In this document: positions 1,445 to 15,982 of the stretch, in pieces | Layout of the letters: each line of letters starts with the position of its first letter | How positions within the stretch are numbered: position 1 is the first letter of the stretch | IMG/VR virus record: IMGVR_UViG_2737471818_000008 | Length of the DNA stretch: 15,982 nucleotides | Direction: 5' to 3' (one strand) | Source: a virus | Lineage: Duplodnaviria > Heunggongvirae > Uroviricota > Caudoviricetes | Program-made: the position numbers and the translations under genes | The notes under the pieces: model-generated | Told to the model about the DNA's origin: nothing | Databases searched by the model: none | What the model saw: only the letters and a program-made list of their open reading frames with translations

Positions 1445-1535
1445 TTCTAACGTCTCCCCAAGTCTACTCAAGTATTTAAAAACCTCTTATAATCCGCATG
1501 TTAGCGCCCCTTTTAGTCTTTTGACGTCTACTTAA

Positions 1536-1607: not shown

Positions 1608-1610
1608 CAA

Positions 1611-2825: not shown

Positions 2826-2953
2826 CTGGTTGCGTATACAGTAGTAGACTTTGAGCGACGAAAGAAAAGGCTGTGTCTAGGGTCGCTCCCGAAAATCCGT
2901 ACACCTCGACGGACTGGTACAGCCACTACAGTAGAGGACGCTGAGGTGTGCGT

Positions 2954-3751
2954 ATGATTGATATTCATGCCGAATTAAACGAATACAAAAAAGATTTTAT
3001 TTCTTTACGTGAATTTCTTGAGGTCGTGCTTAAGGTCGCTGGTGATGATTATGATGTTTCAGATGTCATAACTTGGATACTCAGGAGAATAAGCGGAGAA
3101 CATATCCGCCTGTACACAGTAAATGAATTTAAGCTGTTGGAATCTTTTTGTAACCCGTATCGGGATGAATTTGATTATGATGTTCTTTATAGAAATCTGA
3201 ATGCGGTTCGGAAACGTGGTTGTTTACCTGGTGAGAGGGATGAAAATGGTTTTCTGGTGTCCGGTTATTGGGAAGATCCCGAATTTGAGAACATTGGATT
3301 TATAAGGGGTGAAATTTTCGCAATTTTTCCCGATGTCCTTGACGCGTTAACGAAGCTGGAAGGCGCTAACTCTTCTGAAAATGACGAGGCACAAGGACGC
3401 GATATTGAAAAGAAAGAGTTGCGTACAGAGGATGATTTATTATCCCAAATCGCAATGCTGGAAAAAGAAAACGCAGAGTTAAGGGCAAGGATAGAGCAGT
3501 TAGAGCAAGAGCGCCCGATACACTTATATAAATACTGGGATAAAGACCCATTAGCTAAGGCTATTGAGATTAGAAACAGAGAGTGGGCCAATTACGATCC
3601 AGAAAATGATTTTGCCACCAGGGGAAATCAAGAAGCGATAACCAGGGAGCTTAAGCAGTGGGGGGCAAGTAATGCACTTGCAACGCTCATAGAGAGGACT
3701 GCCTGCCCTATTAACCGAGACAACAGCCAAAAGAACGCAAAGCCGGATTAA
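2954..3751 (+). CDS. Hypothetical protein with a coiled-coil segment; AT-rich orphan cargo gene between int and alpA
   Basis: ORF with ATG at 2954 and GAGG 7 nt upstream (the ORF track begins at GTG 2948). Visibly more AT-rich than the flanking int and alpA. Heptad-like stretch LLSQIAMLEKENAELRARIEQLEQER. No catalytic motif recognised. Confidence 0.6.
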   Translation: MIDIHAELNEYKKDFISLREFLEVVLKVAGDDYDVSDVITWILRRISGEHIRLYTVNEFKLLESFCNPYRDEFDYDVLYRNLNAVRKRGCLPGERDENGFLVSGYWEDPEFENIGFIRGEIFAIFPDVLDALTKLEGANSSENDEAQGRDIEKKELRTEDDLLSQIAMLEKENAELRARIEQLEQERPIHLYKYWDKDPLAKAIEIRNREWANYDPENDFATRGNQEAITRELKQWGASNALATLIERTACPINRDNSQKNAKPD

Positions 3752-3765
3752 CGCACCATACCGCA

Positions 3766-3910
3766 TACCCTGAGGATGATTTACTGTTACCCTGAGGGTA
3801 TTTTTTTATCTTCCCCGTCAATTTTACCATCACCCTTAGGGTAGATTTCCTCCCGATTACCATCACCCTTAGGGTTAATTTCCTTCCGGTAACCATTAGG
3901 CCTGAGGGTA
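3766..3910. repeat. Array of palindromic TACCCT-N-AGGGTA motifs including two 27-bp direct repeats, upstream of alpA
   Basis: Seen directly: TACCCTGAGG (3766-3775), TACCCTGAGGGTA (3788-3800), ACCCTTAGGGTA (3832-3844), ACCCTTAGGGT (3865-3875), CCTGAGGGTA (3901-3910). The 27-bp units TTACCATCACCCTTAGGGTAGATTTCC (3824-3850) and TTACCATCACCCTTAGGGTTAATTTCC (3857-3883) differ at 2 positions. Confidence 0.6.
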
Positions 3911-3978
3911 TGAAAATATTCGTTATTTCTGTGCCATGATTACCTCGTCAAATTGAGTAGACGTTATGAGGTAAATAT

Positions 3979-4176
3979 ATGTCAAATACGCTTATTCGTT
4001 TAACAGAAGTTCAGCGTAGAACTGGATATAGCAAGGCATGGATTTATCGCCTTATGGGGCAAGGTAAATTTCCTGCATCAGTTAAAATTGGCTCGCGAGC
4101 TATTGCTTTCGTTGAGAGTGAAATTGACGAGTGGATTAATCAGCGTATTGCGGAATCACGCGGAACAGCTACCTGA
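3979..4176 (+). CDS. alpA: AlpA-family phage transcriptional regulator / excisionase-like DNA-binding protein
   Basis: 65-aa ORF with GAGG 7 nt upstream of the ATG. LIRLTEVQRRTGYSKAWIYRLMGQGKFPASVKIGSRAIAFVESEIDEWI is the characteristic AlpA/Vis-type winged-HTH sequence found after int in P4-like and PICI elements. Confidence 0.85.
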   Translation: MSNTLIRLTEVQRRTGYSKAWIYRLMGQGKFPASVKIGSRAIAFVESEIDEWINQRIAESRGTAT

Positions 4177-4253
4177 TTAAATGGCTACGGGGCTATTGCC
4201 CCCAGCTATCCACCAGCAAATAAAAGTAACTTAATTCGATAGCAGGAGTTTTT

Positions 4254-5054
4254 ATGAAATTTCCAAAAACGCCCGTACAGGGGCGGGGCTTCGTTCGGCC
4301 TGAAAACCAGAATCTGCAAAATTTCGGCGAAATTATCCCGATTATTTCCGGCGTTATTGGCGGGAGTGAAACCACTATTGTTAGCGCCAGAGCGTTACAT
4401 AAGGCGTTAGGTGTAGGGCGCGTTTTCCGTTCGTGGATCAAGGGGCGCATTGAAGAATACGGGTTCACGGAAGGCGTGGATTATGAGGTTGTTGAATATT
4501 TGAGCCGACCCGATCCGGTGAGCGCAAAATCTCGCCAGCAAACCGCTCTTGAGTACATCATCACAGTGAACATGGCGAAAGAACTGGCGATGGTAGAACG
4601 CACCGAACAGGGGCGCGCCGTTCGTCAGTACTTCATCAAATGCGAGGAAGAGCTACACAAGGTTGCGCCTGTACGTTCCGCAGCGTTACGCCGGGAACTG
4701 AAAGCCCGTATCACAGTTGCCAGCTACTTTAAGCCAATGTGTGCCGCGCTGGAGGCGTACCGGGCTGAACTGGGTAAAAACACTCTACAGCACCACTACA
4801 CCACGGAAGCCAATATGCTGGCGCGTATCGTGCTGGGTGGCATGACTGCAAAACAGTGGGCGCAGGCGAACGGCATCACAGGCGAACCACGCGACCACAT
4901 GAGCACGTTGCAGCTTGAGCACCTTTCTTACCTTGAGCAGAGCAATATCACGCTGATTGAGTTAGGCCAGGACTACCACCAGCGGAAAGCTGAATTAATT
5001 CGCCTTTCGCAGCGTTGGTTAGCCCGTCGCATGGAGGAAAACAGCCATGTGTAA
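4254..5054 (+). CDS. Phage antirepressor-like protein (AntA/ORF6N-type N-terminal domain)
   Basis: 266-aa ORF with CAGGAG upstream. The N-terminal stretch SARALHKALGVGRVFRSWIKGRIEEYGFTEGVDYEVV matches the pattern I associate with AntA/ORF6N antirepressor N-domains. The domain assignment is from memory and needs an HMM search. Confidence 0.6.
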   Translation: MKFPKTPVQGRGFVRPENQNLQNFGEIIPIISGVIGGSETTIVSARALHKALGVGRVFRSWIKGRIEEYGFTEGVDYEVVEYLSRPDPVSAKSRQQTALEYIITVNMAKELAMVERTEQGRAVRQYFIKCEEELHKVAPVRSAALRRELKARITVASYFKPMCAALEAYRAELGKNTLQHHYTTEANMLARIVLGGMTAKQWAQANGITGEPRDHMSTLQLEHLSYLEQSNITLIELGQDYHQRKAELIRLSQRWLARRMEENSHV

Positions 5055-6348
5055 CGCTCTGACCGTTACAAAAAGAGAAAGCGCCCCGTTGCCGGAGCGC
5101 CTTTGTGAACGAATAGCCTACTGCGCCATATTGCTTACTGTCTACGGGGCAGATTATAGCGTTGTGGTCGCACAGAGTGAAGGCGCTGATCACCGTTTCT
5201 ACAGCACGCCGGAAATGCAGAATATTTTGCTGCAAAATGCCGTTGGTCACGCCGTCCGGAAAGCAAAAAATTTTGCTGGTGGTGCGACCGATACGATTTT
5301 GTCAGGTCGCCAGGTGCTGATTAATCTGATGTCTGATTTCGTTCTGGATAAAACAAAGGCGACCGCAGAGGGCCGCCAGTGGGAAAGCTACATACTTGAA
5401 CGCATCGCCAACAATGCCAGATTTGCGGCTGGTGGACAATGTGTCAGCTTTGCACCAATGACTCTATGTTTAACTGAGGGTCATTATGGTGAATATGCTG
5501 GCTTGCTGGTGGGCTATTCCTGCTCTTTAACATTGCCATGCCGCGATGTTTTCCAGGTATGCGATCCCATTTTTGTGCGCCTGTACTCTTTAAGGAATTG
5601 CTCAAGGGCAAAAGCACATGGCGCGAATCTTTCTGATTCATGCTCTATCTTTCTGCGCCGTCTTTTCCGTGCCGGTGATGGTGTATTGGTTGATTCTTTG
5701 TTGGTCATGGCGCTGCCCTGTAAAACGATGCACCGTAGTTCCTCACACCACGGCGCTGGTGATGGTTACTCCTGTTCTTTGGCCTTGCGGCGCTGGCGGT
5801 ATTCAACTTCTCGCTTTAATGCTGCTGTTACAAACTGCCCTGTACTTTCACCAGGCATTTTTACCGCCTCAACATTGTTCATAACTTCATGCGGAACCCT
5901 TGCCGCAACTGTTTGTGATTTTGCGTTTACTGCTTTTGTCGCCATGTTGTGTACCCCTTACAAAAAACAAATGCAGTATGCAGGAAAAAAAATAAGTGTT
6001 CAACACTTGACGTGTTTAACACCTGGACTTAAATTGGTGTTCAACACCTTGTTGATGCAAGGTGCAGAAACGACAACGCCCCGCAGTGGTGGCACACATG
6101 CAGGACGTCTAACCACCAACGATAGCAAGAGTATCGAGGTAGCTATGAGAAATCATACCACACACCCGCAAGGGCGGGACTCGCACAACCTGAATAAATA
6201 CATCTGGCGTTTTATCGCCCTGAGCACGGCACAACCGCGCGTAATTCACATCGAGGCCACCAGCGAACAGGAAGCACGCCAGCAATCTCCTGATGGCTGC
6301 GTGATGGTATTCGCCGCCCGTATTCGCCAGGAGGTGGAACATGTGTAA
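5047..6348 (+). CDS. Hypothetical protein; only the 5' ~140 codons look coding. The 433-codon ORF is probably a chimeric read-through across an antisense gene, an intergenic operator region and a separate in-frame small gene
   Basis: Start ATG overlaps the stop of the upstream gene (ATGTGTAA). Codon usage over about 5047-5470 looks like normal coding sequence. Beyond that the translation becomes Cys/Ser/Thr-rich and crosses an operator/promoter cluster at 5996-6047. No in-frame stop exists before 6348. Confidence 0.25.
   Translation: MCNALTVTKRESAPLPERLCERIAYCAILLTVYGADYSVVVAQSEGADHRFYSTPEMQNILLQNAVGHAVRKAKNFAGGATDTILSGRQVLINLMSDFVLDKTKATAEGRQWESYILERIANNARFAAGGQCVSFAPMTLCLTEGHYGEYAGLLVGYSCSLTLPCRDVFQVCDPIFVRLYSLRNCSRAKAHGANLSDSCSIFLRRLFRAGDGVLVDSLLVMALPCKTMHRSSSHHGAGDGYSCSLALRRWRYSTSRFNAAVTNCPVLSPGIFTASTLFITSCGTLAATVCDFAFTAFVAMLCTPYKKQMQYAGKKISVQHLTCLTPGLKLVFNTLLMQGAETTTPRSGGTHAGRLTTNDSKSIEVAMRNHTTHPQGRDSHNLNKYIWRFIALSTAQPRVIHIEATSEQEARQQSPDGCVMVFAARIRQEVEHV
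5766..5945 (-). CDS. Small ribbon-helix-helix-like DNA-binding protein (59 aa), candidate repressor of the divergent promoter; not in the supplied ORF track because it is under 60 aa
   Basis: Hand-translated from the minus strand: MATKAVNAKSQTVAARVPHEVMNNVEAVKMPGESTGQFVTAALKREVEYRQRRKAKEQE. AAGGGG lies 8 nt upstream of the ATG. The pattern is strand (TVAARV), helix, loop, helix. Three palindromic operators lie immediately upstream. Confidence 0.4.
   Translation of the reverse strand: MATKAVNAKSQTVAARVPHEVMNNVEAVKMPGESTGQFVTAALKREVEYRQRRKAKEQE
5996..6047. promoter_or_regulatory. Divergent promoter/operator region: three GTGTT(C/T)AACAC palindromes overlapping a sigma70-like promoter
   Basis: Seen directly: GTGTTCAACAC (5996-6006), GTGTTTAACAC (6012-6022), GTGTTCAACAC (6037-6047). 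TTGACG (6007-6012), a 17-bp spacer, then TAAATT (6030-6035) forms a plus-strand promoter with operators flanking the -35 and overlapping the spacer and the region just downstream of the -10. Confidence 0.55.
6145..6348 (+). CDS. Small protein (67 aa), possibly Icd-like host cell-division inhibitor family; first gene of the rightward operon
   Basis: In-frame ATG at 6145 with GAGG 6 nt upstream, downstream of the operator/promoter cluster. MRNHTTHPQGRDSHNLNKYIWRFIALSTAQPRVIHIEATSEQEARQQSPDGCVMVFAARIRQEVEHV resembles my recollection of Icd-like small proteins in P4-like prophages. Unverified. Confidence 0.4.
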   Translation: MRNHTTHPQGRDSHNLNKYIWRFIALSTAQPRVIHIEATSEQEARQQSPDGCVMVFAARIRQEVEHV

Positions 6349-6565
6349 TGCAACATGGCCTGATGCAGCGGTAGACGCTATCAAAACGCTGATGGATTCA
6401 CTTATTGAGATTTCTGCTATCGCTGGTGTGGCGCATAAACACGCAGCCAGAGAATCAGAATGCATCTCCCATTATTTAGCATTTGTGCAGCTAAAAGCCG
6501 ATCAGGCACTGGATAAGGCCGGAAAAATTATCATGGCTGATGTGCAGGAGGTGCACCATGCATAA
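6341..6565 (+). CDS. Hypothetical small protein (74 aa)
   Basis: ORF with AGGAGG 9 nt upstream of the ATG. Start overlaps the preceding stop (ATGTGTAA); first of a chain of overlapping small genes. Confidence 0.55.
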   Translation: MCNATWPDAAVDAIKTLMDSLIEISAIAGVAHKHAARESECISHYLAFVQLKADQALDKAGKIIMADVQEVHHA

Positions 6566-6923
6566 CCTGTCAATTTCTGACCTTAACAGCATTCAGTTTG
6601 ACGAGAAATTTACCGGGCAGTTGCTGGTCAATGTGGAGAACGGGCGCATAGTGCGTAATTACCACCTGCCGGATGGTGCAATTGCCGGAAGCGTTGAAGC
6701 ATTGCTGGAACTGGCGGAACGTGCGCGACTGATTAAGCCGTCAACGAGCCATCACGATGATGATCTGCATTTTACCGGGCGTATGGTGAGTCACTACGAA
6801 AACGGCGTTGAAGTATCCCGCGAACGGCTGCGTGATGATTGCTGTTTCGGCACACTGCCGGAATTTATCGAGTTGCTGACCAGTTGCGGTTATCAGGTCA
6901 TTCAGGGGGGTAAACATGCGTGA
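6558..6923 (+). CDS. Hypothetical protein (121 aa)
   Basis: ATG at 6558 preceded by AGGAGG at about 8 nt (the ORF track's upstream ATG at 6540 has no RBS). Overlaps its neighbours in operon fashion. Confidence 0.6.
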   Translation: MHNLSISDLNSIQFDEKFTGQLLVNVENGRIVRNYHLPDGAIAGSVEALLELAERARLIKPSTSHHDDDLHFTGRMVSHYENGVEVSRERLRDDCCFGTLPEFIELLTSCGYQVIQGGKHA

Positions 6924-7149
6924 TGATCGTTTTAATTCCCTGAAACGGGAATTTGATGGCGCACCGGAAGATGCAGCGGGCGCATTGTTGAGCGTTGCTG
7001 ACATGATGAAAGCTGCATATTTTCTTATCAATACCAGTGGCTACAAGTCAGAGGGTGAAATGATTCTTAGTATTGCGTCGGACTATGCGGAATATGTGGC
7101 AGAGACGCGTTACAGAAGAAAATTCACGGAGGATGTAAGCCATGCATAA
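6916..7149 (+). CDS. Hypothetical small protein (77 aa)
   Basis: ORF whose start overlaps the upstream stop (ATGCGTGA); G-rich RBS upstream. Confidence 0.55.
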   Translation: MRDDRFNSLKREFDGAPEDAAGALLSVADMMKAAYFLINTSGYKSEGEMILSIASDYAEYVAETRYRRKFTEDVSHA

Positions 7150-7342
7150 TCATGAAGCGCATGTACCCGTAGTGCTTAATGTGCCAGATGATTTCACCGG
7201 ACGCGTATTGGTTTACCTGGATAAAGGGAAAGTGAAATCACAATGCCGACTGAAAAGTAATGAGATTGTTGGTTCTCCTGAATTTTTTTCTGAACTTTGT
7301 ATTCGTGCGGAAATAAAACCGGAACTGCTGACAGGAAAATAA
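7142..7342 (+). CDS. Hypothetical small protein (66 aa)
   Basis: ORF with GGAGG upstream; start overlaps the upstream stop (ATGCATAA). Confidence 0.55.
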   Translation: MHNHEAHVPVVLNVPDDFTGRVLVYLDKGKVKSQCRLKSNEIVGSPEFFSELCIRAEIKPELLTGK

Positions 7343-7346
7343 AACC

Positions 7347-7637
7347 ATGAAAAAGAAAAATTCTGGCTTTACTGCCAGCGGCCTCTCTCGGCCTGAAATC
7401 CGCCCCGGTGATATTTTCCGGGACACCAGACGCGGGGGACGGGTGGTTATTCGTCACGTTACGCCAGGCAATATCACCTACCGCCGTGAGGCTTACGAAT
7501 ATGACTGCGTAATGCCGCGCCGTCAGTTTGATCGTGATTTTATTCTGGTGGAAAACAAACAACAGGCAGTGGCGAGACGTGCAGCCACGAATATTAAAAA
7601 AATCCGGGCAATGTTGGTTGCGGGAGGTAAGAAGTGA
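7347..7637 (+). CDS. Hypothetical basic protein (96 aa)
   Basis: ORF immediately after the previous stop; its stop overlaps the primase GTG start (GTGA). Confidence 0.6.
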   Translation: MKKKNSGFTASGLSRPEIRPGDIFRDTRRGGRVVIRHVTPGNITYRREAYEYDCVMPRRQFDRDFILVENKQQAVARRAATNIKKIRAMLVAGGKK

Positions 7638-9439
7638 AAAACGCACCGAGTCTAAAATATCAGCCGAAGGATAAATTCACTGAGGTAATCATTTTTGCCG
7701 GGACGGATGCTTACGCCCATGCTCAACACTGGATTGAAAGTGAAGGACGAAAACACGGCGATAACGTGCCTCCTGTTTACCTGGGGCCAAAGCAACTGGC
7801 AGACCTGGCGAATATCCGCATTATTGACGAGAAACGCCGTTTTGCGCGTGTCTATATCGCGGGGGAGATAGAGCCAATCCAGATCAATACTATCGCTGAA
7901 AAGCTGGCGCTGGCTGGCGTACAGGAGGCGAAATTATACAAAGGTATCACCGACCAGGAACCGGAGAACTGGCGCGACTACCTGCAACGGATCCGCGAAC
8001 AGGCTGAGCACGGGGAAGTTTCAGTGATGAAATTAGCTACAAAAAATAGTGGTCTACCCAAGCCTGCATTAAATCAGATGGGAGCCAGCCAGAGAGGGGA
8101 GGTGTTACTTGAACATTATGGAGGAGCACTGGCGATAAATGATGATTCTGATGTAGTTCACCATTACAACGGAATTGTTTGGGAGCCTGTATCTGATAAA
8201 GAACTCCAGCGGTCTATGGCGAAGATTTTTATTGATGCCGAAATTAGTTATTCGCAAAACGCCATTAAATTTGCCGTAGAGACAATGAAATTGAGTCTAC
8301 CTGTTATGGGGGGAGCGGACAGAAATCTTATTGGGTTCAGTAACGGTGTTTTTGATATCAGGACAGGAAATTTTCGGGAACACAACAAAAATGACTGGTT
8401 GTTAAATGCCAGTGAATTACCGTTCAGCCCGCCAGAAGAGGGGGAAACGCTGGCAACACATGCGCCGAATTTCTGGAAGTGGTTGCGTCGTTCGGTGGCG
8501 GATAATGCTCGTAAAGCGGATCGCGTACTGGCGGCATTATTCATGGTACTGGCGAACCGGTACGACTGGCAGTTATTCCTTGAGGTAACGGGGCCGGGCG
8601 GAAGCGGTAAAAGTGTGATGGCGGAGATTTGTACCATGCTGGCGGGTAAGGCCAATACAGTATCGGCGAGCATGAAGGCGCTGGAAGACGCGAGGGAACG
8701 AGCGTTAGTGGTAGGATATTCTCTGATTATCATGCCTGACATGACCCGCTACGCAGGTGATGGTGCTGGGATTAAGGCCATTACAGGCGGTGACAAGGTG
8801 GCTATCGATCCGAAACACAAAGCGCCCTATTCCACGCGCGTTCCTGCGGTAGTGCTGGCAGTAAACAATAATGCCATGTCATTCAGCGACCGTAGTGGGG
8901 GGATCTCGCGTCGACGAGTGATATTTAATTTCTCTGAGGTTGTACCAGAGAACGAACGCGATCCGATGCTGGCGAAAAAGATAGAAGGGGAACTGGCCGT
9001 AGTGATTCGCCATTTGCTTACACGATTTGCCGACCAGGACGAAGCGAAAAGACTACTTTATGAGCAGCAAAAATCAGAAGAAGCACTGTTAATAAAGCGT
9101 GAAGGTGATTCGCTGGTGGACTTCTGCGGTTATCTGATGTCGTTGGTTAAATGTGAGGGGATGATAGTAGGTAATGCAGAAATAGTGCCATTTAGCCCGA
9201 GGCGATATCTGTATCATGCTTATTTGGCTTATATGTCTGCGCATGGTCTGGGAAAACCGGTATCACTGACACGCTTTGGTACAGATATGCCAGGGGCAAT
9301 GGCTGAGTACGGAAAGGAGTACAAGCGGGCTAAATGCACTAAAGGTCCAGATAAAGGGCGAACGATCACAAATGTTCTGTTAGATAAAGATGCTGATGGA
9401 TGGTTACCAGCAGCGGCAGGCATTAACGACAGAACATGA
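7634..9439 (+). CDS. Phage/plasmid primase, P4 family (primase-helicase with C-terminal NTPase domain)
   Basis: 601-aa ORF with GTG start and GGGAGG upstream. Walker A GPGGSGKS and a downstream Walker-B-like acidic motif; overall architecture typical of P4 alpha-like / PICI pri-rep proteins. An iteron array follows immediately. Confidence 0.88.
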   Translation: MKNAPSLKYQPKDKFTEVIIFAGTDAYAHAQHWIESEGRKHGDNVPPVYLGPKQLADLANIRIIDEKRRFARVYIAGEIEPIQINTIAEKLALAGVQEAKLYKGITDQEPENWRDYLQRIREQAEHGEVSVMKLATKNSGLPKPALNQMGASQRGEVLLEHYGGALAINDDSDVVHHYNGIVWEPVSDKELQRSMAKIFIDAEISYSQNAIKFAVETMKLSLPVMGGADRNLIGFSNGVFDIRTGNFREHNKNDWLLNASELPFSPPEEGETLATHAPNFWKWLRRSVADNARKADRVLAALFMVLANRYDWQLFLEVTGPGGSGKSVMAEICTMLAGKANTVSASMKALEDARERALVVGYSLIIMPDMTRYAGDGAGIKAITGGDKVAIDPKHKAPYSTRVPAVVLAVNNNAMSFSDRSGGISRRRVIFNFSEVVPENERDPMLAKKIEGELAVVIRHLLTRFADQDEAKRLLYEQQKSEEALLIKREGDSLVDFCGYLMSLVKCEGMIVGNAEIVPFSPRRYLYHAYLAYMSAHGLGKPVSLTRFGTDMPGAMAEYGKEYKRAKCTKGPDKGRTITNVLLDKDADGWLPAAAGINDRT

Positions 9440-9473
9440 TACGAAATTTATAAGTTGAAACTTAAAAGTAGAC

Positions 9474-9806
9474 GGTTGGTAGACAGATACACTTAACCCT
9501 CTACCAACCATCTACTAATTAATGTTTTGAATTATATAGGTATTTTTAATGTGGTAGAGAGGTGGACAGTTTATTTTATATTTCTAAACCACGGGGGTAT
9601 CTAAAAATAGATAGTTATGGGTTCATTTTTAAAATTTTTCTTTTAACTATCTACACTGTCTACCATTTAGTAAAAATCATTAATTATCAATGTATTAATA
9701 CGGTAGAGAGTTGGTAGACAGTTTGCAGATTGTTTTTTGTTATGTGTGAACAACATTAAATAAATCAATCAATTATATCGATAGACAGTTGGTAGACAGT
9801 TGTAAC
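9474..9806. repeat. Iteron array, probable replication origin: about 8-9 copies of GGTAGA(C/G)AG(TT) in both orientations in an AT-rich segment
   Basis: Seen directly: GGTTGGTAGACAG (9474-9486) with inverted partner CTACCAACCA (9501-9510); GTGGTAGAGAGGTGGACAGTT (9551-9571); ACTGTCTACCA (9655-9665, inverted); CGGTAGAGAGTTGGTAGACAGTT (9701-9723); tandem TAGACAGTTGGTAGACAGTT (9782-9801). Directly downstream of the primase gene. Confidence 0.65.
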
Positions 9807-9807
9807 G

Positions 9808-10350
9808 ATGGGGCAAAGCATGACTAAGCTGACCATTAACAGAAAACCGAAAGGCATTTACGGCACGCCGCAGAAAACGACGCAGGCGGCACAGGAGCAG
9901 GATAAAACCACGTCGGCGCATAAAGTGATGCCCGGTAACCAGAAAGCGCAGCAGAAGCCCACAGGGGCGACACCGTGGCGGCATATGACCAAGCGCCAGC
10001 GCAAAAACCGCAGGCGCATTAACCGCCTCACTGAGTTGTGGCCTGAATTATTCAGCCGGGAAGCACCGAAGCCGCTTAAGGTGGGGATATTCGACGACCT
10101 GATGCAGGATCTCGCCGTCAGGGGGCTGGCATTCGGTCTAGGGGCATTGCGTGCGACGCTGGCATCTTATGCACAGTGTCCGCGCTATTACCGCGCCTTA
10201 ATGGCTGGTGGGGTACGCTACGACCTGAAAGGCCAGCCGTGCGGCGAGGTGACACCACAGGAACAACAGGACGCAGAAACGCGGCTGGTGGCGCTGAATG
10301 AGAAGCGCAAACGTCAGCGCCGGGTAGCAAAGGAGAAAACAGGCGCATGA
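9808..10350 (+). CDS. ProQ/FinO-domain RNA-binding protein (RNA chaperone family)
   Basis: The segment ELFSREAPKPLKVGIFDDLMQDL...YAQCPRYYRALMAGGVRYDLKGQPCGEVT aligns by eye with the E. coli ProQ N-terminal FinO-like domain (PLKIGIFQDL...RVDLDGNPCGEL). Basic, low-complexity N-terminus. The start may be ATG 9808 or ATG 9820. Confidence 0.8.
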   Translation: MGQSMTKLTINRKPKGIYGTPQKTTQAAQEQDKTTSAHKVMPGNQKAQQKPTGATPWRHMTKRQRKNRRRINRLTELWPELFSREAPKPLKVGIFDDLMQDLAVRGLAFGLGALRATLASYAQCPRYYRALMAGGVRYDLKGQPCGEVTPQEQQDAETRLVALNEKRKRQRRVAKEKTGA

Positions 10351-10634
10351 TTCACGACAGCAAAGCGGAAGCACTGGAAGCGCGTGGTCTGTACCGGAGA
10401 GCGGCGGCGCGGTGGGCTGAGGTCATCATGCTGGCGAATGATGACAAGGCACGGGAACAGGCGGCAAAACGTCGCGCGGAATGTATCCGCAAGGCAGCAC
10501 GCCCACCAGCAAGGCAGGATAATTTCGGGGAGATGCGCGAAACCATCAGCCGGGCACATGCCGGGATGGGATTACATCAGCCCAATGGTAAGGCATTCAG
10601 GAAATACCCTGGATCGAAAAATTGCAGTCAGTGA
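10347..10634 (+). CDS. Small regulatory protein, possibly a PerC-family transcriptional activator
   Basis: 95-aa ORF translationally coupled to the upstream gene (ATGA overlap). The N-terminal AEALEARGLYRRAAARWAEVI resembles the conserved N-terminus I recall for PerC-family proteins. Family assignment is from memory. Confidence 0.6.
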   Translation: MIHDSKAEALEARGLYRRAAARWAEVIMLANDDKAREQAAKRRAECIRKAARPPARQDNFGEMRETISRAHAGMGLHQPNGKAFRKYPGSKNCSQ

Positions 10635-10639
10635 CGGAG

Positions 10640-10663
10640 GCCGGGATTTTTCCCGGCTTTTTT
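10640..10663 (+). terminator. Rho-independent terminator after the ProQ/PerC-like gene pair
   Basis: GCCGGGA-TTTT-TCCCGGC forms a 7-bp GC-rich stem with a 4-nt loop, followed by TTTTTT; begins 6 nt after the stop codon. Confidence 0.75.
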
Positions 10664-10675
10664 GTGCCAGTAAAA

Positions 10676-10710
10676 AGCCCGCAGCCAGAAGTGTTGCGGG
10701 CTTTGTTTTT
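10676..10710. terminator. Second hairpin terminator, possibly bidirectional
   Basis: AGCCCGCA...TGCGGGCT forms an 8-bp stem, flanked by an A-run upstream and TTGTTTTT downstream. Confidence 0.55.
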
Positions 10711-10835
10711 CAGGTGATTGAAGTCAATGGGAAGAACGCGATCATCATGCGTTATTGTTTCATAAATTGCAATGATGTAGATCGTCATTTCAGTTTGTGC
10801 AATCATAACTATTGTTTTGTTCAGGAGATATGACT

Positions 10836-11009
10836 ATGAGAAAAGCCAGCGTGAAACCTGTTTTACTCGCTCGTGATCAGATTGAAGCATTACAGCGCAT
10901 CCAGGACGAGGAACGCCGCAATTCTCCGCTGGGGATTGCTCCGAGCATTCATGAGGTCGCCCGGCGTTTAATGCAGCGGGCGCTTTATCCCGTAGAACGT
11001 CCGGCCTGA
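10836..11009 (+). CDS. Hypothetical small protein (57 aa)
   Basis: ATG at 10836 with AGGAG 8 nt upstream (the ORF track's TTG at 10812 is less likely). Charged, helical composition. Confidence 0.5.
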   Translation: MRKASVKPVLLARDQIEALQRIQDEERRNSPLGIAPSIHEVARRLMQRALYPVERPA

Positions 11010-11048
11010 TGGTCGTGATTTTTTGGTGAAAAAAGAGAGGTGGTAAAA

Positions 11049-11627
11049 ATGCCAGCAAGCAAAGAAGATTTGCGATTAAAACTGATGGAGGTGGTTAACG
11101 CTCTGTCAGAGTCGCAGGGCAGCACTCCGCAGGAGATTATCGAAATTCTGAATGCGATCCCCGCACAGGATTTCATAAAAGAGGATAACGCTAATCAAAA
11201 CATCGTCGCGTCAGTCGAAGATGAATCCTCACTGGCAGAAGCCCAGGCTAAAGCAGATTCCGCATACAGCAATATGGGCCGTCGCGCTCCAGCCCCGTTT
11301 GCTGGTGAAAAGTCGATGGATTACCGCAAGCGTGCATTAATTGGTGCACAGAAGCTGGCTAAAAAATTCAGTGATGTGGATATTCGTTCCGTTTCAGATT
11401 CTGCAACGCTGGCGGTGCTGGAAGATCAGATTTACCAGGCTGCAAAAGACAGTGTTCAGTGGGCTGTGGAAAATACGCCGGGCTATTTGCGTAAAACCGT
11501 AAGAATGGATGAAGCCGGACGGCGGATTACTGAATATCAGGGGGATCCGAATAACTGGCTTAGTGCTTTCAAAATCCCTCCCCGTCGCCTGGTCAAAATT
11601 AACGTTGCAAGCCTCGCGGGGGCATGA
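11049..11627 (+). CDS. Hypothetical acidic protein (192 aa); candidate morphogenesis/packaging-interference protein
   Basis: ATG at 11049 with GAGAGG upstream (the ORF track start 11040 is probably too early). Normal coding composition. No similarity to P4 Psu, Delta or Sid recognised. Confidence 0.65.
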   Translation: MPASKEDLRLKLMEVVNALSESQGSTPQEIIEILNAIPAQDFIKEDNANQNIVASVEDESSLAEAQAKADSAYSNMGRRAPAPFAGEKSMDYRKRALIGAQKLAKKFSDVDIRSVSDSATLAVLEDQIYQAAKDSVQWAVENTPGYLRKTVRMDEAGRRITEYQGDPNNWLSAFKIPPRRLVKINVASLAGA

Positions 11628-11691
11628 AAAACGTGCTGAGTTCAGCCCTGCCGGATTTGGCGGGGCTTATTGCTTATAACCGGATAACATT

Positions 11692-12363
11692 ATGCTTTTA
11701 ACAGAAATTGAGGCGGCGAAGCAGATTCGGGACGGACAGCTACCGTCGCCTTATCAGTTTTCCAACATGTGGCTGGTTAACCTGCGTATCACAGGAACCG
11801 GAATGGCCTACCGCGCAGAAGAAAAAGAATTTGTCTGGCGTTCACCGCAAACTTATCTCAATCCGCAGTTCCTGGAACGTTGCGCCGGAGTACCCGTAAT
11901 TATCGACCATCCCGAAAGCAAAACCCTTGAAGACGTGGGCGAACGGTCGCGCATTATTGGCACCGTCATGTTGCCGTATATTCGCGGTGACGAGGTGTGG
12001 GGCGTATGCCGGATTTACGGGCAGGAAATCATCGATTACATCCAGAAAGCACGGGGGGAGGTATCCACCAGTCCGTCGGTTGTGTTTTGTGGTGCGTCCG
12101 GTGGGGCTGAAGTTCCTGATGTAATGGGCGAGGACAATTTTTTTATTGAGGGTACGCCATTTCTTATCGATCACGTTGCACTCGTACCGTTGGGCGTATG
12201 GGATAAGGATGGGAAACCATCGGGTGTGGAGGTAACAACGCCGACAGCAGAAGAGCAGCTTGCCGGAATGGTCCGGGACGTTATTGATGCGGCCTGCAAG
12301 CCAGCCCTGGAAAAACTGGAAGAAATATCCGGGCGGCTGGCTCAACTGGAAAAAGAAGGGTGA
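11692..12363 (+). CDS. Hypothetical protein (223 aa); weak prohead-protease-like motifs
   Basis: Clean ORF. Contains IIDHPES, FCGASGGAE and LIDHVAL, which could correspond to a His/Ser protease arrangement. Speculative. Confidence 0.65.
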   Translation: MLLTEIEAAKQIRDGQLPSPYQFSNMWLVNLRITGTGMAYRAEEKEFVWRSPQTYLNPQFLERCAGVPVIIDHPESKTLEDVGERSRIIGTVMLPYIRGDEVWGVCRIYGQEIIDYIQKARGEVSTSPSVVFCGASGGAEVPDVMGEDNFFIEGTPFLIDHVALVPLGVWDKDGKPSGVEVTTPTAEEQLAGMVRDVIDAACKPALEKLEEISGRLAQLEKEG

Positions 12364-12369
12364 GTCATA

Positions 12370-12897
12370 ATGCTGATGAGTAAGGCAGAATATGCCAAAC
12401 ACAAAGGCGTAAGCCGCCAGACAGTTTACGACTGGATCGAGAAAGGCGAAGTGGTCATGTCCGGTAAAAAAATCGATGTGGAAGCGACAGAGCAGCGGAA
12501 CAGCCCACCAGCACAGGGAAAAGACACAGTTTCTGAAATGTGGCCAGAGAGAACGCTGGAAATGACGTGGGGCGAGTTCTGGAAAGCAGTTAAGGCCAGA
12601 GACGGTAAAATTCCTGCGCCAGCAACGGACGAGGGCATACAGCAGCGTGTGCTGGATGCAGCCGGGGAATTAGGCTGGGAAGTGCACTTTCTTGATGATG
12701 GTGCTATCTGCCTTGAGGATTGCGACGGGCAGCATTACTTTGAACAATACAATTTGCGAGGTAATGCCAGGCTGGCAATTCGTATGCTGCGTTGCGAACT
12801 CTGCTATGTTGCAGGTGATTATGCCGATGAACTGGAATCATGGAGTGAAGCCGGGCTAAACGCCCTGGCTGAATGGGAAAAATCAGACCATCAATGA
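12370..12897 (+). CDS. HTH DNA-binding protein (175 aa); candidate small-terminase-like / packaging-redirection or regulatory protein
   Basis: The N-terminal SKAEYAKHKGVSRQTVYDWIEKGEV is a recognisable helix-turn-helix. The gene is followed immediately by a structured repeat array. Confidence 0.65.
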   Translation: MLMSKAEYAKHKGVSRQTVYDWIEKGEVVMSGKKIDVEATEQRNSPPAQGKDTVSEMWPERTLEMTWGEFWKAVKARDGKIPAPATDEGIQQRVLDAAGELGWEVHFLDDGAICLEDCDGQHYFEQYNLRGNARLAIRMLRCELCYVAGDYADELESWSEAGLNALAEWEKSDHQ

Positions 12898-12901
12898 CAT
12901 C

Positions 12902-13195
12902 AAAAAGTGTCAAGTTGAGCAGCTTGCCGGGTTGACACTTTACACTCTGAACGCGAAAAAGTGTCAACCTCGCTGTAAGCCCCGCCGTTACTGGCCTTGC
13001 GCCAGATTTACCACGTCAAAAAGCCGAAAAAATCGCGAAAAGTGTCAAGTTGACATGCTTAGAAATGCCAGGGATGGTTAAGTTTTGTTAAGGTTTTTCG
13101 TGAAAAAGTGTCAAGTGTGTCAACCTACGATATTAAGATTTATTAAGGTCTTAAGCCGGAAAGTGTCAACCAGCCCCTAAGATTTCCTAAGGTGT
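12902..13195. repeat. Two-motif repeat array: at least 6 copies of (A)AAGTGTCAA(C/G) interleaved with 3 copies of TAAG(A/T)TTT-NN-TAAGGT; candidate packaging (cos/pac) recognition or operator region
   Basis: Seen directly: GTGTCAAG (12907-12914) with inverted GTTGACAC (12931-12938); GTGTCAAC (12961-12968); palindrome GTGTCAAGTTGACA (13042-13055); tandem GTGTCAAG-TGTGTCAAC (13108-13124); GTGTCAAC (13163-13170). Interleaved TTAAGTTTTGTTAAGGT (13079-13095), TTAAGATTTATTAAGGT (13132-13148), CTAAGATTTCCTAAGGT (13177-13193). Confidence 0.6.
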
Positions 13196-13200
13196 AAATC

Positions 13201-13383
13201 ATGACCATCACCGAAGCCGATATGCTGGAGATGATCCGCAGCATTGCCGGAATCAAACAACCAGCAAGCAAAATTAACAGGTGTTCAGCGCCTGTTTCCG
13301 TTGTGCTGCAACAGGAATGCCACCAGCGGCGGGAAAACGAAAAGGCGTACCAATGGACGAAGCCAAACAAGTTACGGCGTTAA
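13201..13383 (+). CDS. Hypothetical small protein (60 aa)
   Basis: ATG with AAGGTG 7 nt upstream, directly after the repeat array; followed by a hairpin. Confidence 0.4.
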   Translation: MTITEADMLEMIRSIAGIKQPASKINRCSAPVSVVLQQECHQRRENEKAYQWTKPNKLRR

Positions 13384-13392
13384 TTAGGAATA

Positions 13393-13415
13393 CGGGCTGA
13401 GATAGCCCGCATTTT
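13393..13415. terminator. Short hairpin between convergent genes (weak, possibly bidirectional terminator)
   Basis: CGGGCT-GAGAT-AGCCCG forms a 6-bp stem, followed by CATTTTG; sits in the 34-bp gap between the plus ORF ending at 13383 and the minus ORF ending at 13418. Confidence 0.35.
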
Positions 13416-13417
13416 GC

Positions 13418-13675
13418 TCACAGCTTGTTATACATTTTTCCAGCGAAGTCATGAACCGCCTGAGGAATATCCGACGGCGTACCTAGCATTGTTGGCGCAT
13501 CGGAAACAAAGAACATGATCGCTTCTTTGATTTCTTCGAAAGATGGGGTAGGGGTAATGCGCTTGAGATTTGAAACCGCCCGTAGGAACTCCGCCGTATC
13601 CATTGGATGCCTGCTAAACCACGTTGGACGAGAAGCCCAACATTTTACTGCTTCTTTCACCTTAGTGTTCATCAT
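13418..13675 (-). CDS. Hypothetical protein (85 aa), minus strand
   Basis: ORF with AAGGA 5 nt upstream of its ATG on the minus strand; convergent with the 13201-13383 gene. No family recognised. Confidence 0.3.
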   Translation of the reverse strand: MMNTKVKEAVKCWASRPTWFSRHPMDTAEFLRAVSNLKRITPTPSFEEIKEAIMFFVSDAPTMLGTPSDIPQAVHDFAGKMYNKL

Positions 13676-14233
13676 TTTTCCTTTTGCTTATTACCATACA
13701 AAGCATGTGGAAAGAGAAGATTAACATGGAAAATATGGAGTTGGTGAGCAAATGAAAGGTACTGGTAGCCTGTCGACATCTATCAGCATGATGATGTGAG
13801 ACCGTATCAGTGGCGGAAACCGAACAGGCTGCGACGGTGAGCGGAGCGTTACGGTAAGCCAACAGCCAAGCCAAACATTAAGTCTACAGGTAAGGTTGTT
13901 TTTTTGCAGGTGGCATTAATTTGTATGTTGGTTTGAGGAGCATTTTTACTGAGACTGCCTGTTCTGGTTAGTTTTTTCGTATGATATACACCTCATCAAA
14001 ATTGTCCGACAGTGTGGAGCGGCGTGGCGGGGAGAGTATTGTGTGCTAGAGATTATAGTTACACTTTAATCTACGACACGATCGTAATTTTTCACTCTTC
14101 TTTTCAGATAAGCTACTACTGAGTTCACAAAAATAACATTATTTTATATCCATGTGTTATCTTTATCTGATATTAATGTGCTGTTCGGTCTTTTTTTGAC
14201 TGCAAACGGCATTAATCATATTAAGGAAACCAA

Positions 14234-15982
14234 GTGAAAATATCTTTTTTTGGCGTAAATAACTTTAGGACAATATCAGGTGGCATTGGTAATAATAGAA
14301 TAATATTTAAAGATAGCAATACGCTTTTCATTTACGGGGCAAACAATGCTGGAAAATCAACTTATTTAAAAGCATATATGTTTTTTTACAGTAATGAAAA
14401 ACCTATCATTGATGATTTCTTTAAACGAGACGACAATAATTCTATTGAGTTTGAATTAGAAGTTCAACTTGATGACTTGGATAAAGAAAGAATAGAAGCC
14501 AAAGCACCGAAGCAAAAGGAAAGTTATAAGAAGTATTTAAATAATGATTTTATTAGAATTAAGAAAGTATGGAGTAAAAATGGAACAAGAATAGAGGATA
14601 AAAATTATACTTATGATTATAGTAAAGGAGATAGCGGCGAGTATGATGAAGTTGGATATGCAACGATTGGTTTGCATCAGGTCTTCCAATCTTGTTTGCC
14701 AAAACCTGTATTTATAAAGGCTATGCCAACAGAGGAAGAAGCTAAGAAGATTCTTAATGAAATCCTAAAGATGATGGCTGAAAATACACTTAAAACATCT
14801 GATCTTGATGAATTAAAAGCAGCTCAGAATAAAATAAAAGAATTACAAGACAAAATGTATGATCCAGAATTGATTGAGACCTATCAGAATTCAGTTAACG
14901 GATACTTTAACAAGATATTCGGTGATACTGCTATATGCTTCAAAGATCAAAAAGATAGGGTTGTTTGGACGGAGAATAAGCTTGGCAGAGATTTTGAAAT
15001 TGAGTTTATGAAAAAAAATAGCCAAGGGGAGTTTGATGGCAATATCCCTTCAAGTTATAGCAGTGTAGGTCATGGAACTATTAGGACTGCAATATTTACA
15101 TTATTATTGATGAGAGATGTAGCAGAGCGTTTTGAAAGAAGGCTTGGACGTAAGGATTACATGGTTCTGTTTGAGGAGCCTGAGCTATTTCTCTATCCTA
15201 GAATGGTGAAGGAACTTCGTGAATTGATTTATCAGGTGAGCACTGAAGACCTTCCATATCAAGTACTTTGTGCCTCACATTCATCTTCCATGATAGATCT
15301 TTCAAAGCCTAAATCTTCGATAATACGATTAGTTAATAATTCTACTGGAACTAAATCATATCAAATTAATGATCAATTTTTGAAGGATGCAAAAGGCATT
15401 GCTACAAATGCTGAACTTAAACAAGAAATGTATGAAGTTTTGAGGTTTAACCCTTATATTTGTGAATCATTCTACGCTGATGAGGTGCTTCTGATTGAGG
15501 GGCCAACAGAAGAAATAATATGTAGAGCTTTTTTACAAGAAACCCCATCAGATAAATCTATATTCGTATTGAACTGTGGTACGGTTAATAACATTCCTTT
15601 TTATCAAAAAATCTTCTCAAGGTTTAATATAAAATATCATGTGATCTGTGATACAGATAAAGCAGAAATAGTTACCGTAGATCAATCTGGCAATGCAGAT
15701 TTTGATTCTGGAATACAGAAAACAATTTCAGAACAGTATAGGAATGATTGTACTGCAATGAATGGTAATATAGGACTACTTCGAACTCATAACATTACAT
15801 TTGAACCTGCTCATCAGGATGTTAGTATTCCTGACTTTTTGAGATTTGTTGATTGCGGTGATAGAAGCAAACCATTTAATGCAAACTTGTACTGGAAGGA
15901 TATTTTAAGGCCAAATATATCACATCAAGATATAAATAAAGTGCCTATAATTAAGTATTTGAATGAAATAATAGCACATTAA
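14234..15982 (+). CDS. OLD-family ATP-dependent nuclease (N-terminal ABC-type ATPase plus C-terminal TOPRIM domain); class 1 OLD or Gabija GajA-like; candidate anti-phage defence protein
   Basis: 582-aa ORF with GTG start and AAGGAAA upstream, in strongly AT-rich DNA. Motifs read directly: Walker A GANNAGKST (near 14336-14362), Walker B MVLFEEPELF (near 15161-15190), H-loop-like ASHS, TOPRIM glutamate LLIEGPTEE (near 15491-15517) and DxD ICDTDK (near 15644-15661). Size matches P2 Old and GajA. Confidence 0.85.
   Translation: MKISFFGVNNFRTISGGIGNNRIIFKDSNTLFIYGANNAGKSTYLKAYMFFYSNEKPIIDDFFKRDDNNSIEFELEVQLDDLDKERIEAKAPKQKESYKKYLNNDFIRIKKVWSKNGTRIEDKNYTYDYSKGDSGEYDEVGYATIGLHQVFQSCLPKPVFIKAMPTEEEAKKILNEILKMMAENTLKTSDLDELKAAQNKIKELQDKMYDPELIETYQNSVNGYFNKIFGDTAICFKDQKDRVVWTENKLGRDFEIEFMKKNSQGEFDGNIPSSYSSVGHGTIRTAIFTLLLMRDVAERFERRLGRKDYMVLFEEPELFLYPRMVKELRELIYQVSTEDLPYQVLCASHSSSMIDLSKPKSSIIRLVNNSTGTKSYQINDQFLKDAKGIATNAELKQEMYEVLRFNPYICESFYADEVLLIEGPTEEIICRAFLQETPSDKSIFVLNCGTVNNIPFYQKIFSRFNIKYHVICDTDKAEIVTVDQSGNADFDSGIQKTISEQYRNDCTAMNGNIGLLRTHNITFEPAHQDVSIPDFLRFVDCGDRSKPFNANLYWKDILRPNISHQDINKVPIIKYLNEIIAH

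What the first reader, a model, noticed from the sequence alone, without database searches (positions are those of the whole stretch)
13676..14233. Long AT-rich intergenic region and compositional break preceding the OLD-family gene
About 560 bp without a convincing ORF separates the minus-strand 85-aa ORF from the OLD-family gene, and the sequence shifts to strongly AT-rich DNA around 13900-14000. A candidate promoter lies close to the GTG start (TTGACT at 14196-14201, -10 TATTAA at 14219-14224). The region could hold regulatory elements or a small RNA for the defence gene, and it marks the junction of a horizontally acquired cassette.
Basis: seen in the sequence. Interest (0 to 1): 0.35.

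Follow-up and report, generated by a model that had tools for sequence, protein, structure and literature searches.

The report
Phage-satellite packaging site beside swapped defence gene
The "empty" stretch before the OLD defence gene holds an unannotated P2/P4-type cos (DNA-packaging) site of a phage satellite. The OLD gene cassette was spliced in from a different satellite family right at that site, which shows where such cassettes are swapped.

Summary
Window 13676-14233 has no annotated or convincing gene and there is a real compositional break. The break lies at about 14037-14053, not at 13900-14000.

The region is a composite:
- 13676-13783: 5' flank of the minus-strand orf85.
- 13784-13840: relic of the 3' end of the small gene orf60.
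- About 13906-14046: a P2/186/P4-type cos site. Its 19-nt core at 14021-14039 (GGCGTGGCGGGGAGAGTAT) matches phage 186 at 17/19. It matches 18/19 a variant found in 19 P2-like phages and 88 P4-like satellites.
- 14092-14233: the AT-rich leader of the OLD cassette.

The host element is a 15.3-kb PICI-type satellite at thrW. It has int, alpA and primase but no detectable psu, sid or delta.

The same OLD cassette (93% aa identity) sits next to cos in a true P4-like satellite. Homology to that satellite starts at the first base of the cos core. It continues past OLD into a decayed P4-type integrase fragment. Left of cos, the window matches its own family.

The cassette junction is therefore the cos site. 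No small RNA was found. Whether the cos is functional is untested.

The parts
13328..13783 (.). 456-bp indel module relative to L003-type relatives. It carries an alternative 3' end of orf60, a bidirectional terminator-like hairpin (13393-13409), orf85 (13418-13675, minus strand) and the orf85 upstream region.
   Evidence: blastn of the window against L003 aligns 12370-13327 and then resumes at 13784. The module is present in L002-type relatives. The hairpin is called.
13676..13783 (-). 5' flank of orf85. A Shine-Dalgarno AAGGA lies 5 nt upstream of its ATG on the minus strand. The orf85 promoter is presumed to lie here.
   Evidence: Read directly from the sequence. The flank is part of the indel module. 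No promoter is called upstream of orf85 by the scan; its only minus-strand hit nearby (13671-13642) lies inside the ORF.
13784..13840 (+). Relic of the 3' end of the ancestral orf60 allele (QHDDVRPYQWRKPNRLRR*). It was left non-coding when the module was inserted.
   Evidence: Translations compare it with the L003 orf C-terminus QQDDVRPYQWKKPDRPRR* and the window orf60 C-terminus AYQWTKPNKLRR*. All 86 E. coli genome matches to the block start at window 13784.
13881..13905 (+). Weak terminator-like hairpin plus T-run that follows orf60 in relatives. Family members without cos diverge just after it.
   Evidence: Sequences of relatives and the alignment. The terminator scan does not call it in the window.
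13906..14020 (+). Left arm of the cos site. It is family-specific in sequence but keeps the motifs shared by P2, 186 and P4: AGGTGnCAT, TTGnATG, GCCnGTTCTGGTT and CAT-AAAA.
   Evidence: Alignment with the P2/186/P4 cos junctions. nhmmer cos profile hit at window 13884-14070 (L001 14585-14771), E=5.5e-36; the window itself was one of the 10 seed sequences of that profile. 75-100% identity to L003 up to about 13983.
14021..14039 (+). 19-nt cos core (the presumed cohesive end), GGCGTGGCGGGGAGAGTAT.
   Evidence: It is the only match in the window to the 186 cos with up to 3 mismatches, against 0.01 expected by chance. It matches 186 at 17/19 and P2/P4 at 15/19. It matches at 18/19 the variant GGCGTGGCGGGGAGAGCAT, found in 109 IMG/VR contigs: 88 with psu on the left and 19 with a gpQ portal on the right.
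14040..14046 (+). Right flank of cos, TGTGTGC, equivalent to the invariant TGCGCGC of P2/186/P4.
14047..14091 (+). Poorly conserved spacer just after the compositional change point (14037-14053).
   Evidence: 45-55% identity to L010.
14092..14233 (+). AT-rich 5' leader that travels with the OLD gene.
   Evidence: About 88% identical to the leader of the OLD gene in the P4-like satellite L010. The plus-strand RNA fold has z=-2.2.
14234..15982 (+). OLD-family ATPase/Toprim nuclease, a single-gene class-1-like cargo. It runs to the window end.
   Evidence: Pfam AAA_15/AAA_21/OLD-like_TOPRIM. PADLOC 'Old' E=5e-63. 93% aa identity to the L010 homologue, whose ATG aligns with the window GTG.

Best explanation
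The window is a roughly 15.3-kb PICI-type phage satellite integrated at tRNA-Thr (thrW). The 558-bp gap before the OLD gene is not a simple regulatory spacer.

From left to right it holds:
- the upstream region of orf85;
- a dead copy of the end of orf60;
- the satellite's cos site (about 13906-14046, with the 19-nt core at 14021-14039);
- the AT-rich leader of the OLD cassette.

Shown:
- The cos is homologous to the P2/186/P4 packaging site.
- It is the last element shared with sister satellites that carry other defence cargo.
- Everything from the first base of the core rightwards was acquired from a P4-like satellite, where the layout is psu-cos-cargo-int. That stretch comprises the core, the OLD leader, OLD and a decayed P4-type integrase 3' end.

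Inferred:
- A P2-like helper terminase recognises the left arm and nicks the core, giving 19-nt cohesive ends. The OLD cargo would then sit at the extreme left end of the packaged DNA.
- The shared cos acts as the left anchor for cassette exchange, either by joining of cohesive ends or by recombination within cos. The right crossover lies in the integrase relic and right flank.
- OLD is transcribed from a promoter inside its own imported leader. The promoter is not mapped.
For: cos identity:
- The core match is unique in the window, with 0.01 expected by chance.
- The P2, 186 and P4 record ends give the reference cos sequences.
- The 56-bp block is 40/56 identical to 186, and motifs are shared in both flanks.
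- The near-identical core variant is used by 19 P2-like phages and 88 P4-like satellites.

Position at the hotspot:
- Sister elements share the DNA to the left and then carry GapS1, DUF4747 or other cargo.

Import from a P4-like satellite:
- L010 has primase, Icd, AlpA, ogr/Delta, Psu, cos, OLD and int. Its OLD is 93% aa identical.
- blastn homology runs from window 14021 to 369 nt past the OLD stop. That stretch includes an integrase fragment covering aa 281-394.
- Sliding identity switches from family-like to L010-like between 13984 and 14023.

Other points:
- The GC change point is at 14037-14053.
- In the family, the cos-core allele follows the cargo and not the left backbone.
- Positions invariant in P2/P4 cos are better kept among six family alleles than variable positions, 66% against 51%.
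Against: - No experiment shows cutting or packaging.
- The 10 nt just left of the nick (GTGTGGAGC) do not match the conserved AAGCGGGC. The right flank is GTGTGC rather than GCGCGC.
- About 7 of about 23 family members with enough downstream sequence have no cos at all.
- The other family core alleles (for example GGTGTGCTGAGGAGAACAT) occur in no P2-like phage in IMG/VR. The family's cos copies may therefore be decaying.
- The satellite lacks detectable psu, sid, delta and epsilon, the known tools for exploiting P2.
- No helper phage was identified for the source strain.
- No sigma-70 promoter upstream of OLD passes the scan.
Confidence: 0.6

Rival explanations
1. The cos-like sequence is a non-functional passenger. 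On this view, cos-cargo-int' segments were captured from P4-like satellites and the cos copy is now decaying. The satellite would be packaged by some other route, and the region would matter only as a recombination scar or homology patch.
For: - The core allele co-varies with the cargo.
- Integrase relics follow both the OLD and the GapS1 cargo.
- Several family alleles differ from the P2/P4 consensus at 2-5 core positions and are absent from P2-like phages.
- About 30% of informative members lack cos.
- The nick-proximal left flank of the window is divergent.
Against: - The left arm is family-specific (42/113 identity to P4, 93/112 to L017), yet it keeps the cos motifs. It was therefore not imported with this cassette.
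- P2/P4-invariant positions are preferentially conserved among family alleles.
- The window's core is only 1 nt from a variant used by real phages.
- No alternative packaging site was found. There is no lambda cosN, no TerS, and no Rpp-like fold in p175.
Confidence: 0.3
2. The region is mainly a transcriptional control region for OLD. It would contain a promoter at 14196-14224 and perhaps a small RNA, and the AT-richness would serve regulation, for example H-NS silencing.
For: - The hexamers are present and largely kept in L010 (TTGGCT-17-TATTAA).
- The leader 14092-14233 travels with the gene.
- The leader RNA folds slightly better than shuffles, z=-2.2.
Against: - The -10 lacks the conserved final T and is not called.
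- It overlaps the SD, so a transcript starting there would lack the ribosome-binding site.
- There is no Rfam match, and the conserved block shows no structure signal.
- Leader conservation (about 88%) equals that of the CDS, so it shows no extra constraint.
- This reading explains only the last 140 nt of the region.
Confidence: 0.1

Closest known systems
The cos site and cos-adjacent defence hotspot of satellite P4 and P4-like elements (psu-cos-[gop/beta/cII or other cargo]-int; Rousset et al. 2022, PMC9122126; Ziermann & Calendar 1990)
   Same: - The 19-nt core type is the same.
- The orientation is the same, with the late-gene side on the left and the cargo on the right of cos.
- The cargo varies immediately after TG(C/T)G(C/T)GC.
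- The cargo is a defence gene.
- The very same OLD cassette is found in a P4-like element.
   Different: - The host element has no detectable psu, sid, delta or epsilon.
- All its genes are co-oriented.
- The hotspot lies between cos and attR, not between cos and int.
- The left arm of cos is only about 37% identical to P4.
The cos-proximal old/tin locus of phage P2
   Same: An OLD-family nuclease gene lies next to a P2-type cos. The P2 old CDS starts at 33380 and its mRNA starts at 33424/33426, about 150 bp from cosR at 33575.
   Different: - In P2 the cargo lies on the other side of cos and on the opposite strand.
- The proteins share only 24% identity over 34% of the length.
Gram-negative PICI EcCICFT073 with its cos1/cos2 sites and Rpp (Fillol-Salom 2018 and 2019; PMC6092414, PMC6739421)
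   Same: - The gene plan is int-alpA-primase.
- The element integrates at a tRNA.
- It carries a helper-type cos with a diverged terminase-binding arm.
- Accessory and defence genes lie at the 3' end.
   Different: - EcCICFT073 has the lambda-type cosN GGGCGGCGACCT, which is absent here.
- No Rpp homologue was found by sequence or by fold.

Membership tests
P2/186/P4-type cos site | 19-nt cohesive-end core GGCG(A/T)GGCGGGGAAAGCA(C/T) | tested here: met
   Window 14021-14039 matches 186 at 17/19, P2/P4 at 15/19, and a natural P2-like/P4-like variant at 18/19. It is the only such match in the window, with 0.01 expected by chance.
P2/186/P4-type cos site | Conserved block of about 55 bp around the core (TGCAT-AAAAC...AAGCGGGC | core | GCGCGC) | tested here: inconclusive
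   40/56 identical to 186, and 35 of 45 reference-invariant positions are kept. However, the 10 nt just left of the nick and the GCGCGC motif are altered.
P2/186/P4-type cos site | Cut by a P2-family terminase to give 5' 19-nt cohesive ends, and sufficient for packaging | not testable with these tools
   Needs transduction assays and mapping of virion DNA ends.
cos-adjacent defence hotspot (Rousset 2022) | Otherwise related elements carry different defence cargo directly next to cos | tested here: met
   OLD (PADLOC Old), GapS1 and a DUF4747 system occupy the same position. The right-of-cos sequences are unrelated, while the left backbones are shared at 30-100% coverage.
P4-like satellite (core set int, psu, delta, sid, alpA, epsilon/ash, alpha) | Presence of the psu, sid, delta and epsilon hijacking genes | tested here: not met
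   tblastn against the P4 genome finds only int (43%), ORF88/AlpA (37%) and alpha (49% over 448 aa). There are no Psu, Sid or Ogr/Delta hits in Pfam or PHROGs.
Gram-negative PICI (Fillol-Salom 2018) | int-alpA-primase plan, roughly 10-15 kb, specific att site, no phage structural genes | tested here: met
   int 1611-2825, AlpA 3979-4176, primase 7634-9439. attL lies in tRNA-Thr and attR at L001 17446-17461, giving 15.3 kb.
Gram-negative PICI (EcCICFT073 subtype) | lambda-type cosN plus an Rpp redirecting protein | tested here: not met
   No GGGCGGCGACCT within 2 mismatches in the window, and none within 1 mismatch in 54 of the 56 family, P4-like and OLD-context loci (L013 and L059 each carry one 1-mismatch match about 3.7 kb downstream of the p175 homologue, not followed up; the single hit in L061 lies inside the p175 homologue). 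The p175 protein has no PDB sequence or fold match to RppC.
Known small or regulatory RNA | Match to an Rfam covariance model, or structure stability beyond shuffles | tested here: not met
   No Rfam match at E<=1 in 13380-14300. z-scores of the conserved block are +0.36 to +2.04.
Sigma-70 promoter at 14196-14224 | -35/-10 hexamers with the conserved -10 A2 and T6, placed so that the transcript includes the RBS | tested here: not met
   TATTAA lacks T6 and is not called by the scan. It overlaps the SD at 14223-14227 and ends 9 nt before the GTG.

The most novel reading that the evidence does not exclude
A lineage of PICI-type satellites has int, alpA and primase but no psu, sid or delta. It parasitises P2-like phages through its own diverged cos. 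Because it shares compatible cohesive ends with P4-like satellites, it draws on the P4 defence-gene pool by joining of cos ends. The nick site itself would be the recombination joint. That would be direct genomic evidence for the cos-end exchange mechanism that Rousset et al. only speculated about. It would also be a counter-example to the 2026 report that P4/P2 defence genes have no close homologues in PICIs.
Probability: 0.35. Interest if true: 0.7.

Novelty: new variant of a known kind. Interest (0 to 1): 0.5.

Why it matters

This locus gives a precise breakpoint. Homology to a P4-like donor begins at the first base of the cohesive end and ends in an integrase relic. That pattern is expected if cos, or cos ends, act as the left crossover point.

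It also shows that a second satellite type, the PICI plan, carries a P2-type cos and shares a 93%-identical defence gene with a P4-like element. A 2026 survey using a threshold of at least 85% identity reported no such sharing with PICIs or cfPICIs (PMC13586616).

In practice, an nhmmer profile of cos can be used to find hotspot boundaries and unannotated packaging sites in islands that gene-based satellite finders classify only by their proteins.

Tried and rejected
- **lambda-type cos, as in EcCICFT073.** No cosN match within 2 mismatches in the window, and none within 1 mismatch in 54 of the 56 loci scanned; one 1-mismatch match each in L013 and L059, about 3.7 kb downstream of the p175 homologue, was not followed up, and the single hit in L061 lies inside the p175 homologue. 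The cos1/cos2 sequences were taken from the paper's supplement.
- **blastn of the region against 50,697 phage records.** No hit. The cos similarity is too short for BLAST statistics, so the P2, 186 and P4 ends were fetched directly.
- **Small RNA.** No Rfam hit at the gathering threshold or at E<=1. Folding shows no signal in the conserved block.
- **Repeats.** Only short, chance-level repeats were found.
- **Small ORFs of at least 20 aa in the gap.** None is conserved or has a family hit.
- **p175 (12370-12897) as an Rpp/TerS-like specificity factor.** There is only a weak N-terminal HTH_17 / PHROG terS match and no PDB sequence hit. The AF2 model is good (pLDDT 89), but only the first 50 or so residues resemble the Xis/BldC fold and there is no RppC match. 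Not supported.
- **Other family cos alleles in helper phages.** GGCATGGTGGGGAGAGCAT and GGTGTGCTGAGGAGAACAT occur only in this satellite family or in unrelated coding DNA.
- **Klebsiella relatives of p175.** These are satellites embedded in prophages and have no P2-type cos. The cos is therefore not a feature of every element carrying that gene.

Full report
**What the window is.** The window is IMG/VR contig IMGVR_UViG_2737471870_000008. From 1399 to 15982 it is 99.99% identical to E. coli EC11. It holds a host aldehyde-dehydrogenase-family gene (Pfam; consistent with proA) followed by tRNA-Thr(CGU) at 1369-1444. A co-oriented satellite follows:
- a P4-type integrase at 1611-2825;
- the int-alpA RNA motif at 2870-2937;
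- AlpA at 3979-4176;
- an AntA antirepressor;
- an Icd-like gene;
- a D5-type primase at 7634-9439;
- ProQ/FinO and PerC;
- two phrog_6216 fragments;
- a 175-aa HTH protein at 12370-12897;
- orf60 at 13201-13383;
- orf85 on the minus strand at 13418-13675;
- the OLD-family gene at 14234-15982.

attL is the 3' end of the tRNA (TCCTATTATCGGCACCA). attR (TCCTATTATCGCACCA) lies 763 nt beyond the window end in EC11. The element is therefore about 15.3 kb. Against P4, only int, AlpA and the alpha primase-helicase are detectable. psu, sid, delta and epsilon are not. By gene content it is a PICI-type satellite, not a P4-like one.

**Check of the observation.** RefSeq annotates no feature in the gap. 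Only short ORFs without family hits overlap it. The GC drop is real. The island core has GC 0.483, the stretch 14053-14233 has 0.298, and OLD has 0.324. The change point is 14037-14053, because 13951-14100 is still 45-48% GC. However, the -10 lacks the final T, is not called by the scan and overlaps the Shine-Dalgarno sequence 9 nt from the start codon.

**Anatomy of the left part (13676-13905).** Relatives of the L003 type align to the window up to 13327 and resume at 13784. The stretch 13328-13783, which includes orf85, is therefore an indel module. Window 13784-13840 translates to QHDDVRPYQWRKPNRLRR*. This is a dead duplicate of the orf60 C-terminus. All 86 E. coli genomes that match the gap start matching exactly at 13784.

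**The cos site.** A conserved non-coding block follows the relic in satellites that carry different cargo. It contains GGCGTGGCGGGGAGAGTAT at 14021-14039. The ends of the P2, 186 and P4 records give the reference cos cores: GGCGAGGCGGGGAAAGCAC for P2 and P4, and GGCGTGGCGGGGAAAGCAT for 186.
- The window core matches 186 at 17/19. It is the only match in the window with up to 3 mismatches, against 0.01 expected by chance.
- The flanks align as well. The CAT-AAAA motif, GCCTGTTCTGGTT (186: GCCCGTTCTGGTT), AGGTGGCAT and TTGTATG lie on the left, and TGTGTGC (P2/P4: TGCGCGC) lies on the right. Over the 56-bp block known to be shared by P2 and P4, 40/56 positions are identical to 186 (PMC9594776).
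- The variant GGCGTGGCGGGGAGAGCATTG is 1 nt away from the window core. It occurs in 109 other IMG/VR contigs. Of these, 88 have a Psu gene about 170 bp to the left (P4-like satellites) and 19 have a gpQ portal homologue about 200 bp to the right (P2-like phages).
- There is no lambda cosN, no Rfam match and no RNA-structure signal.

**The cassette and its donor.** Only five E. coli complete genomes match the OLD segment. One of them is strain 23AR0998 (L010). It carries the segment in a bona fide P4-like satellite at ssrA with the order primase, DUF5375, Icd, AlpA, ogr/Delta, Psu, cos, OLD, int. The two OLD proteins are 93% identical.
- blastn homology between the EC11 copy of the element and L010 runs from window 14021, the first base of the core. 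It passes through the leader and OLD and continues 369 nt past the stop codon. That last stretch is a decayed 3' fragment of a P4-type integrase (aa 281-394) on the minus strand.
- In 20-nt bins, the window is 75-100% identical to family member L003 and 25-55% identical to L010 up to 13983. From 14024 onwards it is 45-100% identical to L010 and mostly below 50% identical to L003.
- The imported unit is therefore core, leader, OLD and int'. Its left joint lies at the cos nick site to within about 10-35 nt.
- On the right, the family-specific flank (96-100% identical between EC11 and the GapS1 carrier L002) begins inside the integrase relic, at about EC11-locus 16990-17050. The right crossover lies there.

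**Family view.** The 175-aa protein was used to retrieve 46 IMG/VR loci (one of them the window's own contig) and 4 genome loci. An nhmmer cos profile finds cos in 16 of them. That is about 16 of 23 among loci that have orf60 and enough downstream DNA. The others diverge just after the orf60 terminator-like hairpin and have no cos.

The core allele follows the cargo, not the left backbone:
- GGTGTGCTGAGGAGAACAT with GapS1, on two different backbones;
- GGCATGGTGGGGAGAGCAT with the DUF4747 system, on two backbones.

These two alleles are not seen in any P2-like phage in IMG/VR. Among six family alleles, positions invariant in the P2/P4 set are conserved at 66%, against 51% for variable positions. 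That test uses non-independent pairs.

**Mechanism.**
- Shown: homology to cos, position at the hotspot boundary, import from a P4-like satellite, and the joint at the core.
- Inferred: the site is the satellite's packaging signal for a P2-like helper terminase, as in P4. After cutting, the OLD cassette would sit at the extreme left end of the linear DNA.
- Also inferred: cos is the left anchor for swapping. Because this family and P4-like satellites share near-identical cohesive ends, the right end of one element could join the left end of the other in a co-infected cell. A second crossover in the integrase relic would then give exactly the observed structure. This is the pathway speculated on in PMC9122126.
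- The OLD promoter is probably inside the imported leader 14092-14233. An extended -10-like TGATATTAA at 14168-14176 would give a leader of about 50 nt. This is comparable to the 44-46 nt between the annotated old-tin mRNA starts (33424/33426) and the old start codon at 33380 in P2. It is unmapped.

**Rivals and caveats.** The strongest rival is that the cos copies are decaying passengers of P4-derived cassettes.
- Points for it: the link between allele and cargo, the members that lack cos, the alleles not seen in any phage, and the divergent 10 nt left of the nick.
- Points against it: the left arm is family-specific yet keeps the cos motifs, and no other packaging determinant was found. The p175 protein is not Rpp-like by sequence or by fold.

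[quoted passage not shown] My searches found no description of a P2-type cos with such a hotspot in a PICI-plan satellite. A 2026 survey reported no homologues at 85% identity or more of P4/P2 defence genes in PICIs or cfPICIs (PMC13586616). The literature search was limited to the held library. I rate this a new variant of a known kind, of moderate interest.

Noticed in passing
window 2870-2937: Rfam int-alpA RNA motif (RF02996, 45.5 bits) lies between the integrase and the next ORF.
   Followed up: no
window 11040-11627 and 11692-12363: Two adjacent ORFs (195 aa and 223 aa, the latter DUF2213) match the same 545-position PHROG profile (phrog_6216) in permuted order, 409-544 and then 115-328. 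Relatives L002 and L003 carry a single 380-aa gene here. The gene looks split or rearranged.
   Followed up: partly
window 12370-12897: The 175-aa protein belongs to a family spread across Enterobacterales satellites, including Klebsiella satellites embedded in prophage late genes. The AF2 model is confident (pLDDT 89). Only the N-terminal 50 or so residues resemble an Xis/BldC winged helix. The C-terminal domain has no PDB match.
   Followed up: partly
window 13328-13783: An orf85-bearing module sits inside the end of orf60 and leaves a dead duplicate of the orf60 C-terminus at 13784-13840. orf85 has a good SD but no family assignment, only a weak phrog_3439 hit.
   Followed up: partly
L001 (E. 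coli EC11) 16723-17062; L002 8726-9013: Decayed 3' fragments of a P4-type integrase lie downstream of the OLD cargo and of the GapS1 cargo. They appear to be scars of earlier capture from P4-like satellites and the likely right-hand crossover zone.
   Followed up: yes
L001 1-2100 versus window 1-1398: In EC11 the same satellite is preceded by another island (DUF4145 protein and others) instead of the host Aldedh-family gene and thrW, which indicates tandem occupancy of the thrW site. Homology to the window starts inside the tRNA at 1399.
   Followed up: no
window 13907-13917 and 14277-14287; 13913-13921 and 14208-14216: CAGGTGGCATT (a cos left-arm motif) recurs inside the OLD CDS. GGCATTAAT recurs in the OLD leader. 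This may be chance.
   Followed up: no
window 14234-14242: RefSeq starts the EC11 OLD protein at the ATA codon (window 14240). The 93%-identical homologue in L010 starts with an ATG that aligns to the window GTG at 14234. This supports 14234 as the start.
   Followed up: partly
L011 (E. coli 160-11H1) 6678-8739: A 77%-identical OLD homologue is split into two ORFs. It lies directly after a PerC pseudogene and before a truncated integrase. This looks like an eroded relative of the same arrangement, without the leader or cos.
   Followed up: no
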